A stretch of 10,698 bases of DNA from an uncultured archaeon (GTDB lineage Archaea > Asgardarchaeota > Jordiarchaeia > Jordiarchaeales > Jordiarchaeaceae), in assembly GCA_964510585.1 (NCBI GenBank), contig CAZECW010000016.1, forward strand, positions 1 through 10,698, written 5' to 3'. Made by a program: the position numbers and the translations under genes. Under the pieces are notes generated by a model. It saw nothing but the letters and a program-made list of their open reading frames with translations, made no database searches and had not been told where the DNA came from. Shown here piece by piece: positions 223-9,456 of the stretch; position 1 is the first letter of the stretch, and every line of letters starts with the position of its first letter.

Positions 223-274
223 ACTTCAAATAGAATAAAAATACACAACGAAAAACATTGGGAAGGTGGTCTAG

Positions 275-294
275 AGCTACCCACTAGCGGAAAA
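275..294 (+). other. tRNA intron 1 (20 nt), D-loop position 15/16, relaxed BHB
   Basis: Bulge AG|A (273-275); intron helix GCTA/TAGC (276-279/285-288); imperfect central helix GTCT/GGAA (3 of 4 pairs); second bulge AA|C (293-295). Excision restores a normal D-loop AGCTTGGTA. Confidence 0.72.
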
Positions 295-328
295 CTTGGT
301 ATGATTCCTGACTTGGGCTCAGGAGGTC

Positions 329-355
329 AAACACATAACCTTATGTGTTCCTTAA
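329..355 (+). other. tRNA intron 2 (27 nt), position 48/49 (variable loop/T-stem junction), BHB
   Basis: Central helix GAGG(323-326)/CCTT(350-353); bulge TC|A (327-329); intron helix AACACATA/TATGTGTT; bulge AA|A (354-356). Excision joins AGGTC to the AGGGG T-stem. Confidence 0.85.
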
Positions 356-420
356 AGGGGTTCAAATCCTCTCCTTCCCACCAATTAGAAATTTAATTTT
401 TCGATTCAATTTTTCTGTTC

Positions 421-1672: not shown

Positions 1673-2093
1673 AAACTAATTAAACAATCTAGGATTTTTG
1701 TGATTAGTATTTTTTGCTCCATTAAGTAGTTTCATATTCTAATTTAAATGGGGGGCTTTTGAGGGGCAAAAATATTGTTCTTTGCTCCGGTAGAGATCGA
1801 AGAAGCTTTTTGGACTGTGGGAATTATGAATGTAAAAAGTTTCCTAATGTTGCTTTTAAGTAGAATGAGGTTCAAGGGACAGCGTGTCCAGAAGGGATAG
1901 AAATTTAACATATGGAAATGTTTGGTCAAGAATTGTAAAGTTTTAGGGTTTTAGGGATAGAATATACTGGATTTGGGTAGTCTCTGATCTTTGTCTTTTT
2001 TGGATGGCATGGGAGAGATGCGGAGTTTTTGAGATATTACTATACTTTAAATTCAGTGTGTACAAAATGAAAAATGTATGCAATAGGTGGTGA

Positions 2094-2445
2094 TTGGAAT
2101 TGACGAGCTTCGAAAAATTATTCACTCGTTTGAAGGAGGTTCTTGAGGATCAGAATCTTTACGAGATTTGGCCTGATTTTGAGAGTAAATTTGATGAGAA
2201 TGAATATTTTCGGATAGAGATTGGCGAAAATTTGCCTGTTTTGATGATTCACTGCGCTTCCTGTGAGGGGCCACACAGCTCCTAGCTAGGCTGGGTCAGT
2301 CGATCCGAGACATCCTCGGTGTAGGGAGTGCATTGAGTATAGAGAAGAAAAGGCTAAAAAGGAGTATCAAAATAAGTATGGGTTATTGGACCCTTGGAAG
2401 GCCGTAGCTTTGTGCAGAATTTACGAGTTTCCAATAAAGGTATAA
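2094..2445 (+). CDS. Small Cys-rich hypothetical protein, two exons: join(2094..2274,2300..2445), 108 aa (106 aa if the start is TTG 2100)
   Basis: GGTGGTGA RBS upstream. Exon 1 frame ends ...IHCASCEGP then hits TAG 2283. The +1 frame encodes DPRHPRCRECIEYREEKAKKEYQNKYGLLDPWKAVALCRIYEFPIKV* (stop 2443-2445). Removing the 25-nt BHB intron gives a continuous ...CASCEGPLDPRHPRCREC... Confidence 0.8.
2275..2299 (+). other. Candidate BHB intron (25 nt) in a protein-coding gene
   Basis: Central helix GGCC(2269-2272)/GGTC(2294-2297); bulge AC|A (2273-2275); intron helix CAGC(2276-2279)/GCTG(2290-2293); bulge AG|T (2298-2300); outer pair G2268-C2301. Canonical cleavage after the second bulge nucleotide removes 25 nt, deleting the stop and correcting the frame. 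Confidence 0.8.
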
Positions 2446-2986: not shown

Positions 2987-3368
2987 TTATACATCCTCCA
3001 TAACTATTTTTGATCTGCTAAGTTAAGAGTTAATACATATTAGACTATAAATTAATTTGGATTATGTATAAAAAAGTCTTTGGTGTGTTTCTGTTTCATC
3101 AGTTTATTTCGACTAGCTGGCACCCTGACTATGGGTTAACGTTTTCTTCTGATAAGAGTCTTTTAAGAAGCTTTTTTGGGGAAAAGAGGAGAAAATAGGG
3201 TGTAGGGAAGAATCATTTGTAAAATGAATCCTCTAGTTGGAGAGGTTCCCCGTTATGCCATTAATTCTAGAAAGTCTATTTTTTGGATTTAGTAACTATG
3301 CTAAATTGGGTTCTGAAAAGTAAGTTTTATGCATAAAAAGCTTGTATTAACTGAATCGTATTAGTAAT

Positions 3369-3610
3369 TATGAAAATGTTTTTCATGGGAAGGTTCATAT
3401 GCTAACGTGGTTCAGATAAAGTATGAAAAAAGCTATTTCATGGGAACCCGTATACGCTTACGCGTTTCAGACAAATTATGAAATAAGTTTTTCATGGGAA
3501 CCCGTATACGCTTAAAGCGTCTTAGACAAAGTATGAAAAATGTTTTTCATGGTAAACCACCATACGCTTACGCGTTTTAGACAAATTATGAAAAATGTTT
3601 TTCATGGGAA
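3369..3610. repeat. Tandem array of ~55-bp units (4 full + 1 partial), each built of short dyads
   Basis: Units start at 3369, 3422, 3477, 3532 and 3587 (spacing 53, 55, 55, 55). Consensus approximately TATGAAAAATGTTTTTCATGGGAACCCGTATACGCTTACGCGTTTTAGACAAA(T/G). Unit length is not a multiple of 3. Confidence 0.95.
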
Positions 3611-3674
3611 TATGGGTGAGGAAATTGGGGTTAACTTTTAAAACCCGAATTTTGTAACGTATCTAACTGTTAAA

Positions 3675-3694
3675 GAGCAAAATGTTTTTATACG
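3675..3694 (+). promoter_or_regulatory. Possible BRE/TATA promoter of the ribosomal protein operon
   Basis: GAGCAAAATG followed by TTTTTATAC, about 50 nt upstream of rpl22; a second TTTTAAAA lies near 3636-3643. Confidence 0.35.
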
Positions 3695-3741
3695 TATCTT
3701 AATTTGGTAATAACTCACATAAAATAAAGTTTATAGGACGT

Positions 3742-4224
3742 GTGCAGATGCCCAACTTTGGATATTCAGTGTTTGGACTGGATCCTGCGCGTACTGCGAA
3801 GGCCAGTGGGCGTGATCTTAGAATTTCACCAAAACATGCACGTGAGATTTGTCATAGTATAAAAGGAAAGATGCTATACGAAGCCAAGGAGTTTCTAGAA
3901 GCCGTCATAGACATGAAGCAGATGGTTCCCTATAAGAGGCATAATAAACTTAGAGCGCACCATAAGGGTCTTCACAAATGGCATAGTGGTGGCTATCCGG
4001 TAAAGGCAGCTCGCGCCATATTAAAAGTTCTTGATAATGTTGAGGCTACCGCTACCTACAAAGGTATGGATGCTGATAGTTTACGCATAATTCATGCAGC
4101 AGCCCAACGTGGACGCATAATTAAGCGGGCTATGCCGCGTGCTTTTGGAAGATCCTCAGCAAAATATAGAAATTTAACCCATGTGGAAATTGTTGTCGAA
4201 GAAGAAAGGATATCTGCGGAGTAA
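3742..4224 (+). CDS. rpl22: 50S ribosomal protein uL22 (archaeal L22); start may be ATG 3748
   Basis: AKASGRDLRISPKHAREIC, GGYPVKAARAIL, PRAFGRSS...LTHVEIVVEE. Confidence 0.97.
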   Translation: MQMPNFGYSVFGLDPARTAKASGRDLRISPKHAREICHSIKGKMLYEAKEFLEAVIDMKQMVPYKRHNKLRAHHKGLHKWHSGGYPVKAARAILKVLDNVEATATYKGMDADSLRIIHAAAQRGRIIKRAMPRAFGRSSAKYRNLTHVEIVVEEERISAE

Positions 4225-8880: not shown

Positions 8881-9456
8881 TTAAAGTATTTTCCACAGAA
8901 GCTCGTCGCCAAGATATTTTCTGTACACGTAGATACCGTCACCGAAAACCCTAGGATCCTTTTTCTTGATTTTGGTTGCTTTTTGAATTCTAGCCGCAGC
9001 TTGACCCACCTTTTCTTTGTCTACGCTTTCTAGAATAACATTGTCTCCCTTAATTTGGACATCTACTCCTGAGGGGATCTCTGCTTTTCGGGCGCTTCTT
9101 TCACCTAAAAAGTTTTTTATGAGCAGTATCTTTTTAGCTGGGTCGTACTCTACGGATATTGGGAAGTGGGCATATACGATTTTCATTTCGTACCTAAATT
9201 TGCGTGTAACCCCCTCTATCATATTTGTTATGTGGCTCTTTAATGTGCCAAGTAGTGACAATTTCTTCTTGTCTGGGTAGTACGTGTCCAAAATAATCCT
9301 ATTATTCGTTTTAGAAATTCTGATATTTTTGGCATGTGAAAAATCTTTGCTAAGAGAACCCAATGGACCACTTACATCCACAACCATGCCTTTTACTTCG
9401 ACTTGAACGTTATCCGGAATTTTTACTTCCAGCTTTGAGTAAGCCGTTTTGGCCAT
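8881..9456 (-). CDS. rpl6: 50S ribosomal protein uL6, convergent with rps8
   Basis: SGPLGSLSKDF, YAHFPISV, NFLGERSAR, VGQAAARIQKATKIKKKDPRVFGDGIYV. Confidence 0.96.
   Translation of the reverse strand: MAKTAYSKLEVKIPDNVQVEVKGMVVDVSGPLGSLSKDFSHAKNIRISKTNNRIILDTYYPDKKKLSLLGTLKSHITNMIEGVTRKFRYEMKIVYAHFPISVEYDPAKKILLIKNFLGERSARKAEIPSGVDVQIKGDNVILESVDKEKVGQAAARIQKATKIKKKDPRVFGDGIYVYRKYLGDELLWKIL

What the first reader, a model, noticed from the sequence alone, without database searches (positions are those of the whole stretch)
2253..2332. Candidate bulge-helix-bulge intron inside a protein-coding mRNA (not cbf5)
Seen: the ORF from 2094 stops at TAG 2283, while a protein-like continuation lies in the +1 frame. 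The segment around the break folds as a BHB: 4-bp central helix GGCC/GGUC, two 3-nt bulges (AC|A, AG|U) and an intron helix CAGC/GCUG. Cutting after the second nucleotide of each bulge removes exactly 25 nt (2275-2299), deleting the stop and restoring the frame (junction CCA C|TC GAT = P-L-D). Flanking exon sequence can form a further 10-bp helix (2253-2262 with 2323-2332, two G-U pairs). The outer helix next to the motif is only 1 bp, so it is a relaxed form like the tRNA introns in this window. Established: archaeal splicing endonuclease (EndA) plus RNA ligase remove BHB introns from tRNA and rRNA, and the classic mRNA case is cbf5 in some Thermoproteota. Inference: this organism splices an unrelated mRNA with its tRNA machinery; such genes would be annotated as pseudogenes, so more may be hidden genome-wide.
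Basis: partly seen in the sequence, partly recalled or inferred. Interest (0 to 1): 0.92.

Follow-up and report, generated by a model that had tools for sequence, protein, structure and literature searches.

The report
Spliced tRNA-type intron in Asgard protein gene
A small zinc-binding protein gene of an Asgard archaeon (Freyarchaeia/Jordarchaeia) is interrupted by a 25-base intron of the kind normally cut out of tRNAs. A public RNA data set contains the exactly spliced message, so I found only one other archaeal gene family (cbf5) in print whose coding sequence is spliced this way.

Summary

- **The break.** The gene at 2100-2445 (+) is broken at 2275-2299. Frame 0 stops at TAG 2283 and the continuing frame has TAG 2287, so no single indel can repair it.
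- **The repair.** Removing exactly 2275-2299 gives HCASCEGP-L-DPRHPRCREC. More than 60 uninterrupted homologues (Jordarchaeum, Odinarchaeia-like genomes, Bathyarchaeia) align across this joint without a gap.
- **The structure.** The break folds as a relaxed bulge-helix-bulge motif. The same intron (25 or 20 nt) sits at the same codon in five related genomes. All 60 base-pair cells are kept, and one pair appears as U-G, C-G, A-U and U-A.
- **Selection.** Both exons are under purifying selection (dN/dS 0.04-0.2).
- **RNA.** An RNA-Seq metatranscriptome contig from a sister species lacks exactly these 25 nt. DNA contigs with identical exons keep them.
- **Machinery.** The genome has two EndA paralogues and RtcB.
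- **Other genes.** cbf5, rtcB and gatE in the same genome carry 30-31-nt inserts of the same kind.

This scan had already flagged such mRNA introns in other genes of this genome and in other archaea. In print I found only cbf5 (Crenarchaeota) and one Haloferax 5'UTR case. The host protein's function is unknown.

The parts
2086..2093 (+). Shine-Dalgarno-like GGTGGTGA in front of the start codon
   Evidence: Read directly from the sequence. Its function is inferred.
2100..2274 (+). Exon 1. It starts at TTG 2100 (alternative TTG 2094) and encodes MTSFEKLF...IHCASCEGP plus the first base (C2274) of the split Leu codon.
   Evidence: It aligns to residues 1-57 of uninterrupted homologues. dN/dS is 0.07-0.2 among intron-bearing genomes.
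2275..2299 (+). 25-nt BHB-type intron (ACAGCUCCUAGCUAGGCUGGGUCAG). It carries TAG in two frames.
   Evidence: It is missing exactly from the RNA-Seq contig of run X11 and present in the DNA contigs of X1, X2 and X5.
2300..2445 (+). Exon 2. It holds the last two bases of the Leu codon, then DPRHPRCRECIEY...EFPIKV and the stop TAA at 2443-2445.
   Evidence: It aligns to the C-terminal half of homologues. dN/dS is 0.04-0.12.
2269..2272 (+). 5' strand of the 4-bp central helix (GGCC, exon 1). It pairs with 2294-2297.
   Evidence: 4 pairs, 24 of 24 cells paired in 6 genomes, with G-C/G-U variation in two pairs.
2273..2275 (+). 5' three-base bulge AC|A. The cut falls after 2274.
   Evidence: Invariant in 6 genomes. 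The joint in the RNA contig begins at 2275.
2276..2280 (+). 5' strand of the intron helix h' (CAGCU). It pairs with 2289-2293.
   Evidence: 5 pairs, all cells paired. The last pair is U-G, C-G, A-U or U-A in different genomes.
2289..2293 (+). 3' strand of the intron helix h' (GGCUG).
2294..2297 (+). 3' strand of the central helix (GGUC, intron).
2298..2300 (+). 3' three-base bulge AG|U. The cut falls after 2299.
2253..2262 (+). 5' strand of a possible long-range exon-exon helix. It pairs with 2323-2332 (10 bp, two G-U).
   Evidence: It is in the MFE fold. 92% of cells are paired in 6 genomes, with one double change. By eye, one intron-less homologue (G008) keeps 8 of 10 pairs, so coding constraints of the two CxxC motifs may explain it.
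2323..2332 (+). 3' strand of the possible exon-exon helix.

Best explanation
The stretch 2275-2299 is a genuine archaeal bulge-helix-bulge (BHB) intron inside the coding sequence of a conserved gene. The gene encodes a ~106-aa protein with two CxxC motifs.

Proposed mechanism:
1. The gene is transcribed with the intron.
2. The pre-mRNA forms a 4-bp helix (GGCC/GGUC) flanked by two 3-base bulges and a 5-bp intron hairpin.
3. The tRNA-splicing endonuclease cuts after the second base of each bulge.
4. The RNA ligase RtcB joins the exons.

The genome encodes two EndA paralogues, one with and one without the catalytic His. This is the make-up of the broad-specificity (alpha-beta)2 enzymes.

Splicing removes two stop codons and shifts the frame by +1. 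It recreates codon C|UC (Leu) and yields the full protein, in which the two CxxC motifs keep the spacing that is invariant across the family.

What is shown and what is inferred:
- Shown: the motif, its conservation with compensating changes, the gap-free fit to intron-less homologues, purifying selection on both exons, and a spliced RNA contig.
- Inferred: the identity of the enzymes, the cyclic-phosphate chemistry, circularisation of the intron, and whether splicing is constitutive or regulated.
For: - **The break needs a two-stop excision.**
- **Intron-less homologues fit without a gap.** Four Jordarchaeum genomes read HCASC[DE]GPLDPRH. Four genomes that I take to be Odinarchaeia read HCC[NS]CDGPSDPRH. 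Fifty-one distinct Bathyarchaeia sequences carry C..C[DE]GPSD.RH..C..C with the same 10-residue spacing. The window's exons flank exactly one alignment column.
- **The intron recurs at the same codon.** It is 25 nt in G001 and G004, and 20 nt in G005 (a closed 3.58-Mb genome), G002 and G009 (another family). All 60 pair cells of the BHB are standard pairs, against 12-57% when the partner is slid. There are 7 further pair types and one pair with four types.
- **Both exons are under purifying selection.** dN/dS is 0.04-0.2 in both exons, while synonymous sites are near saturation between G000 and G005/G002. The BHB core stays invariant.
- **A spliced RNA exists.** RNA-Seq run X11 holds a 251-nt contig (depth 26) covering 2087-2348 with exactly 25 letters left out at 2275. 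It shares all 8 exon variants of the strain in X1/X2, whose 2.5-3.3-kb contigs keep the 25 nt. Run X5 (DNA, over 99% identical) also keeps them.
- **The machinery is present.** There are two EndA genes. One is most similar to crenarchaeal catalytic subunits (3p1z_B, 2cv8, 2zyz_B); by my reading of its sequence the other lacks the His. RtcB is also present.
- **The context fits.** A doubly interrupted tRNA-Pro lies in the window. In the same genome cbf5, rtcB and gatE carry 30-31-nt BHB-flanked inserts. For this class, 92-95% of tRNA genes are reported to be interrupted (PMC11291895).
Against: - The RNA evidence is a single assembled contig from a sister species (about 94% protein identity), not raw split reads from this strain. 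An RNA library can contain DNA, so an intron-less DNA allele in that sample is not formally excluded.
- The outer exon helix next to the motif is only 1 bp, so the motif is not the canonical hBHBh'.
- The thermodynamic fold of the isolated RNA prefers another structure and is not unusually stable.
- With six related sequences the covariation statistics are weak: 62 of 500 shuffles reach the observed score.
- No enzyme assay exists.
Confidence: 0.9

Rival explanations
1. The gene is a decaying pseudogene, and the BHB-like fold at the break is fortuitous.
For: The gene reads as two short out-of-frame ORFs. The isolated RNA fold is not unusually stable.
Against: Both halves evolve with dN/dS of 0.04-0.2 in the joined frame. 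The interruption is kept at the same codon in six genomes of two families, with compensating changes. A motif at the exact joint has a chance of about 4e-4. A spliced RNA contig exists.
Confidence: 0.03
2. The 25 nt stay in the mRNA and the ribosome skips them by translational bypassing or programmed frameshifting, as in phage T4 gene 60.
For: A stop-containing structured insert inside a conserved gene is also what bypass elements look like. According to Yokobori 2009 (PMC2738675), cbf5 introns were once mistaken for frameshift sites.
Against: The RNA contig itself lacks the 25 nt. The insert has the exact geometry of the splicing-endonuclease substrate, with cuts two bases into each bulge. 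I saw no matched take-off and landing codons. The 20-nt and 25-nt versions differ in their frame effect but share the BHB.
Confidence: 0.02
3. The intron is real, but splicing is partial and acts as a switch. Unspliced mRNA would give a 63-aa one-CxxC product, and the level of full-length protein would then depend on EndA/RtcB capacity.
For: The upstream ORF ends cleanly inside the intron in the 25-nt versions. The rtcB gene of the same genome itself carries a BHB-flanked 30-nt insert, so splicing capacity could feed back on itself. In Haloferax, removal of a 5'UTR BHB intron affects expression of HVO_1309 (PMC7714728).
Against: Nothing here measures splicing efficiency. In X11 only the spliced form was assembled. 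Assembled contigs drop rare variants, so that is weak evidence. In the 20-nt versions the unspliced reading frames differ, so a conserved truncated product is not evident.
Confidence: 0.15
4. The 25 nt are an assembly or sequencing artefact of this metagenome-assembled genome.
For: The genome is a 217-contig MAG.
Against: The insert is present in independent assemblies of five other genomes, including a closed one. It is also present in contigs of other public runs from different studies (X5 at over 99% identity, X1 and X2).
Confidence: 0.01

Closest known systems
cbf5 pre-mRNA BHB intron of Crenarchaeota (Watanabe 2002; Yoshinari 2006; Yokobori 2009, PMC2738675)
   Same: Both are short BHB-type introns inside a protein-coding sequence (16-44 bp in cbf5, 20-25 nt here). 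Both often change the frame and must be removed to make the protein. Both occur in organisms with a two-subunit splicing endonuclease and many non-canonical tRNA introns. Both are patchily distributed among relatives, which implies gain and loss.
   Different: The host gene is unrelated: a ~106-aa double-CxxC protein with no Pfam or NCBIfam family. The phylum is different (Asgard, class Freyarchaeia/Jordarchaeia). The motif is relaxed, with a 1-bp outer helix. The cbf5 gene of this same genome also has a 31-nt canonical BHB intron, at the catalytic Asp codon.
BHB intron in the 5'UTR of HVO_1309 mRNA, Haloferax volcanii (Schwarz 2020, PMC7714728)
   Same: In both cases the splicing endonuclease acts on an mRNA.
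   Different: That intron lies in the untranslated leader and does not interrupt codons. Haloferax has a homodimeric EndA. That case has in vivo and in vitro enzyme data, which are missing here.
Non-canonical tRNA introns of Freyarchaeia and Atabeyarchaeia (Valentin-Alvarado 2024, PMC11291895; bioRxiv 10.64898/2026.10.13.758758)
   Same: Same organisms, the same presumed enzymes, similar lengths, and relaxed motifs at unusual positions. The window itself holds a tRNA-Pro with two such introns.
   Different: The substrate is an mRNA coding sequence. My term searches of the two papers' text found no mention of introns in protein-coding genes or mRNAs.

Membership tests
Archaeal BHB (splicing-endonuclease) intron | A 4-bp central helix flanked by two 3-nt bulges on opposite strands, each bulge lying 3' of its central-helix strand | tested here: met
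   GGCC/GGUC with bulges ACA and AGU. The topology was checked against the tRNA 37/38 geometry. The feature is conserved in 6 genomes.
Archaeal BHB (splicing-endonuclease) intron | Flanking helices h (exon-exon) and h' (intron) of at least 2 bp each (strict hBHBh') | tested here: not met
   h' is 5 bp, but h is a single G-C or G-U pair. It is therefore the relaxed HBh' form. A 10-bp exon helix lies 6 nt (5' side) and 21 nt (3' side) further out. Relaxed forms are accepted by (alpha-beta)2 and epsilon2 enzymes (PMC5829648).
Archaeal BHB (splicing-endonuclease) intron | Excision between the 2nd and 3rd base of each bulge, with exons joined in the RNA | tested here: met
   The RNA-Seq contig lacks exactly 2275-2299. 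The placement is unambiguous because the flanking bases differ. It comes from a sister species and is one contig.
Archaeal BHB (splicing-endonuclease) intron | Splicing endonuclease and RtcB ligase are encoded by the organism | tested here: met
   Two PF01974 genes over the cut-off. One PF01139 gene scores 578 bits, though it carries a 30-nt insert with a TGA.
Archaeal BHB (splicing-endonuclease) intron | 2',3'-cyclic phosphate and 5'-OH ends, and a circularised intron | not testable with these tools
   This needs raw reads or biochemistry.
Archaeal BHB (splicing-endonuclease) intron | The spliced product is the functional molecule | tested here: met
   The joined ORF aligns gap-free to more than 60 uninterrupted homologues, with the invariant CxxC-10-CxxC spacing. 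dN/dS is 0.04-0.2.
cbf5 intron family | The host gene is cbf5, and the intron interrupts the catalytic Asp codon | tested here: not met
   The host has no TruB/PUA domains and no Pfam or NCBIfam hit. The genome's cbf5 lies elsewhere, on contig C18.

The most novel reading that the evidence does not exclude
BHB splicing of messenger RNAs may be a genome-wide feature of Freyarchaeia/Jordarchaeia rather than a one-gene curiosity. On this reading ten or more protein-coding genes need the tRNA-splicing machinery. They would include housekeeping genes, cbf5 (at the same catalytic-Asp codon as in Crenarchaeota) and the splicing ligase gene rtcB itself. Asgard archaea, the closest known relatives of eukaryotes, would then have a protein-enzyme-based pre-mRNA splicing programme, with a possible feedback loop through rtcB.
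Probability: 0.6. Interest if true: 0.88.

Novelty: new member of a known kind. Interest (0 to 1): 0.75.

Why it matters
In the literature I could search, endonuclease-mediated splicing of an archaeal coding sequence is documented for one gene family only: cbf5 in Crenarchaeota. There is also one 5'UTR case in Haloferax.

This finding adds an unrelated gene, in a different phylum, with comparative evidence and public-RNA evidence for the exact joint.

- **Annotation.** Such genes are called as two short ORFs or as pseudogenes, including in the published complete Freyarchaeum genome. Gene catalogues of intron-rich archaea are therefore systematically incomplete.
- **Biology.** The tRNA-splicing machinery appears to process mRNAs routinely in a lineage close to the ancestor of eukaryotes. 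This bears on how tolerance for interrupted protein genes could arise before spliceosomes.

Tried and rejected
- **Genome-wide scan.** I scanned G000 for strict BHB motifs (4-bp H, at least 4-bp h', at most 1 G-U, 16-100 nt) whose excision joins two ORFs of at least 40 codons. This gave 1808 hits, against 1849 for a mirrored decoy motif. Filtering by length, ORF size or helix length produced no enrichment. The scan recovers this intron, cbf5 and gatE but misses rtcB, whose h' is only 2 bp. It has no power to count introns, and homology is needed.
- **tRNA and RNA-family searches.** ARAGORN and Rfam (gathering and E<=1) on the raw window found nothing.
- **Host protein.** There was no Pfam hit, and NCBIfam gave only non-significant hits (E 0.08-0.1). 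The AlphaFold2 model is of moderate quality (pLDDT 71). Foldseek found no significant PDB match. The only AlphaFold DB cluster match is an unnamed 103-aa protein.
- **Synteny.** The Sm-like gene (Lsm + Lsm_C, 2555-2986 on the minus strand) is a neighbour only within this class. It is not next to the Odin-like or Bathyarchaeia homologues, so it gives no functional inference.
- **First run search.** The 3.2-kb stretch listed no holder on record as RNA. The second, narrower search found X11.
- **First related-loci scan.** It failed because the alignment was too diverse and worked with four Jordarchaeum sequences.
- **Alternative 20-nt register in the 25-nt version.** GGCC can also pair with GGCU at 2289-2292. 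This has no h' helix and gives a nonsense product, so I rejected it.
- **G003.** This genome (same genus, 97% complete) gave no match with any query. The gene was not found there, for an unknown reason.
- **Pyrrolysine read-through of TAG 2283.** I rejected it because that frame runs into another TAG and does not encode the conserved DPRH..CxxC.

Full report
**What is in the sequence**

The window is contig C16 of a 3.78-Mb, 217-contig archaeal genome. It carries a ribosomal-protein cluster. On the + strand an ORF starts at TTG 2094 or, more likely, TTG 2100, preceded by GGTGGTGA. It reads MTSFEKLF...IHCASCEGPHSS and stops at TAG 2283-2285. The protein-like continuation DPRHPRCRECIEY...EFPIKV lies in the +1 frame and ends at TAA 2443-2445. 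That frame is closed upstream by TAG 2287-2289. The two open frames do not overlap, so no single indel or simple ribosomal frameshift can join them. Both stops have to be removed.

**The motif**

The topology is the one known from tRNA introns. On each strand the order is outer helix, 4-bp central helix, 3-nt bulge, inner helix.

- The central helix is GGCC (2269-2272) with GGUC (2294-2297).
- The bulges are ACA (2273-2275) and AGU (2298-2300).
- The intron hairpin is CAGCU/GGCUG (2276-2280 with 2289-2293), with an 8-nt loop.
- The outer exon helix next to the motif is one pair (G2268-C2301), so this is a relaxed HBh' form.
- A 10-bp exon-exon helix (2253-2262 with 2323-2332) lies further out and is part of the MFE fold.

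Cutting after the second base of each bulge removes 2275-2299 (25 nt) and gives CCA C|TC GAT, which reads P-L-D. The MFE fold of the isolated RNA is not the BHB and is not unusually stable. Energy models penalise bulges, so I give this little weight.

In this genome strict motifs of this type occur at about 1e-4 per position and length. The protein alignment allows only four cut-site pairs, so a chance motif at the right place has a probability of roughly 4e-4.

**Homologues**

Searching relatives with exon 2, with a full-length homologue and with a family profile gave a clear split.

- Four genomes of genus g2, whose record titles name Candidatus Jordarchaeum/Jordarchaeia, have an uninterrupted gene of 102 aa reading HCASC[DE]GPLDPRH.
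- Four genomes of family f3 have HCC[NS]CDGPSDPRH. They are about 1.4 Mb and one is closed. I take them to be Odinarchaeia, which is an inference.
- One more Asgard genome (G014) has a divergent intact copy.
- Fifty-one distinct Bathyarchaeia sequences all carry C..C[DE]GPSD.RH..C..C with the same spacing.

In the alignment the window's exon 1 ends and exon 2 begins on either side of exactly one column, the split Leu codon.

**The intron in relatives**

Five other genomes have the gene in two frames at the same codon.

- G001 and G004 have a 25-nt intron.
- G005 and G002 (same genus) and G009 (a different family) have a 20-nt intron with a 3-nt loop.
- G005 is a closed genome of 3,576,204 bp. 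This matches the 3.58-Mbp complete Freyarchaeum genome of PMC11291895. I therefore infer that the genus is Freyarchaeum (Freyarchaeia, which others call Jordarchaeia).

On the alignment (A3) all 60 pair cells of the BHB are standard pairs, against 12-57% when partners are slid by 1-3 columns. There are seven further pair types. The closing pair of h' is U-G, C-G, A-U or U-A in different genomes. With six related sequences the shuffle test is weak (62 of 500), so this is supporting evidence rather than proof on its own.

The distal exon helix is 92% paired, with one double change. By eye, an intron-less homologue (G008) keeps 8 of 10 of these pairs. They may follow from the codons of the two CxxC motifs.

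**Selection**

In the joined frame, dN/dS between intron-bearing genomes is 0.04-0.2 in each exon separately. Synonymous sites are close to saturation between G000 and G005/G002, while the BHB core stays invariant. This is not a pseudogene.

**RNA**

Two run searches listed several hot-spring metagenomes that hold the gene, plus one RNA-Seq metatranscriptome (X11, a sediment sample). I laid four runs on 1950-2550.

- X5 (DNA, over 99% identical, another study) keeps the 25 nt.
- X1 and X2 hold 2.5-3.3-kb contigs of a sister strain with the G001/G004 variants, and they also keep them.
- The X11 contig (251 nt, depth 26) covers 2087-2348 with exactly 25 letters left out at 2275.
- The X11 contig shares all eight exon variants of the X1/X2 strain. 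Its loose 3' end matches the G001-type exon 2.
- The deletion placement is unambiguous because the bases flanking the two cut sites differ.

So an RNA library contains the precise spliced form of the orthologous gene, and DNA with identical exons keeps the intron. The limits are these: it is one assembled contig, from a sister species, and an RNA library can carry DNA.

**Machinery and context**

- The genome has two EndA-domain genes over the Pfam cut-off.
- One (192 aa) is most similar to the catalytic subunits of crenarchaeal heterotetramers (3p1z_B, 3ajv_B, 2cv8, 2zyz_B). It keeps Tyr, His and Lys in the expected motifs.
- The other (198 aa) lacks the His by my reading of the sequence. This fits an (alpha-beta)2 enzyme, the type that accepts relaxed motifs (PMC5829648). 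That assignment is an inference.
- RtcB is present.
- The window also contains a tRNA-Pro(UGG) that ARAGORN finds only after a 20-nt and a 27-nt segment are removed.

**Other mRNA introns in the same genome**

- **cbf5** is split at GHAGTL|D|PKVTG, the catalytic Asp codon, by 31 nt. These form a perfect hBHBh' motif: h is GGGA/UCCC, H is CACU/AGUG, and h' is 7 bp.
- **rtcB** has a 30-nt insert with an in-frame TGA between PD and AHQGYGFPIGG. It is flanked by CCCG/CGGG and bulges ACA/AAG.
- **gatE** has a 30-nt insert. Exon 1 matches GatB_N profile positions 2-40 and exon 2 matches positions 47-276.
- **An aconitase-family gene** with a 33-nt insert is likely a further case.

Earlier notes of this scan list further candidates in this genome (pcm, moaE, ahcY and others). 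I did not test them.

**Host protein**

The protein has no Pfam hit and only non-significant NCBIfam hits. The AlphaFold2 model is of moderate quality (pLDDT 71): helix, beta-hairpin, zinc knuckle, helix, strand. Foldseek found no significant match in the PDB, and in AlphaFold DB only an unnamed 103-aa protein.

The invariant residues include the four Cys, GP, D, RH and two Trp, so I read it as a small Cys4 metal-binding protein of unknown function. The convergent Sm-like neighbour (Lsm + Lsm_C) is syntenic only within the class.

**Evolution**

- Within the class, the intron is in all five g1 genomes that have the gene and in g3. It is absent from the four g2 genomes.
- It is also absent from every outgroup copy found.
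- G009 (g3) groups with g2 by protein sequence and by the tool's taxonomy, yet it has the intron.
- One gain in the class ancestor followed by precise loss in Jordarchaeum (g2) is therefore the most economical reading. This matches what was proposed for cbf5 (PMC2738675).
- Independent gain at the same site is not excluded.
- Intron-less genes read GGCCCAC^TTGA at the site, which shows how little the exon context differs.

**Comparison with what is known**

Six library searches and a reading of the key papers turned up the following.

- Splicing of a coding sequence by the BHB pathway is reported only for cbf5 in Crenarchaeota (Watanabe 2002; Yokobori 2009).
- One 5'UTR intron is reported in Haloferax (PMC7714728). 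That paper states cbf5 was the only other mRNA case.
- Yokobori 2009 notes that introns in other protein genes were predicted but never confirmed.
- My term searches of the papers on Freyarchaeia tRNA introns (PMC11291895; bioRxiv 10.64898/2026.10.13.758758) found no mention of mRNA introns.
- The library does not hold most subscription-journal papers, so a prior report cannot be excluded.

Within this scan, the same kind of intron has already been followed up in other genes of this genome and in DPANN, ammonia-oxidising and other Asgard archaea.

I therefore file this as a new member of a known kind. It is well supported, and it has the added value of a public RNA contig showing the exact joint.

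Noticed in passing
L075:1790-1850 (-), which is G000 contig C18 at about 27680-27740: The cbf5 gene of this Asgard genome is split at the catalytic Asp codon (GHAGTL|D|PKVTG) by a 31-nt insert containing TAG. The insert forms a perfect hBHBh' motif (h GGGA/UCCC, H CACU/AGUG, h' 7 bp). By Yokobori 2009's description this is the same site as the classic crenarchaeal cbf5 intron.
   Followed up: partly
L074, G000 contig C58 at about 3755-3795 (+): The splicing-ligase gene rtcB has a 30-nt insert with an in-frame TGA between PD and AHQGYGFPIGG. The insert is flanked by CCCG/CGGG and the 3-nt bulges ACA/AAG. The ligase mRNA itself would therefore need BHB splicing.
   Followed up: partly
L111 (G000:C18:14597-16576, minus strand): gatE is interrupted by a 30-nt BHB insert with a stop (h' 9 bp). 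Exon 1 matches GatB_N profile positions 2-40 and exon 2 matches positions 47-276.
   Followed up: partly
L110 (G000:C181:3020-4327, minus strand): An aconitase-family gene (LeuC/HacA-like) appears to be split after ...RVMVHEMLG by a 33-nt BHB insert (h' 9 bp, h 4 bp). The 46-aa first exon is too short for a Pfam hit.
   Followed up: partly
L112 (G000:C180:296-1694, plus strand): Two long ORFs (283 and 173 aa, no Pfam hit) would be joined at ...EVDPAYG|K|YHFDGHR by removing a 28-nt BHB candidate. I did not verify this by homology.
   Followed up: no
window 260-383 (+): A tRNA-Pro(UGG) is invisible to ARAGORN and Rfam on the raw sequence. ARAGORN calls it once a 20-nt and a 27-nt segment are removed, so it has two introns outside the canonical 37/38 site.
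   Followed up: partly
window 8881-9456 (-): The ribosomal protein L6 gene lies on the opposite strand to the rest of the S8/L5/S4e/L24/L14 cluster, which looks like a local inversion of the conserved operon order.
   Followed up: no
window 3000-3740: A stretch of about 700 bp without ORFs lies between the Sm-like gene and the L22 gene. Another first-stage note reports phased 55-bp dyad repeats at 3325-3633. I did not examine it.
   Followed up: no
window 2286-2292 versus relatives (alignment A3, columns 24-28): The 25-nt and 20-nt versions of the intron differ by 5 nt in the loop. The longer loop reads CUAGCUAG, which looks like a tandem CUAG duplication and supplies stops in two frames.
   Followed up: no
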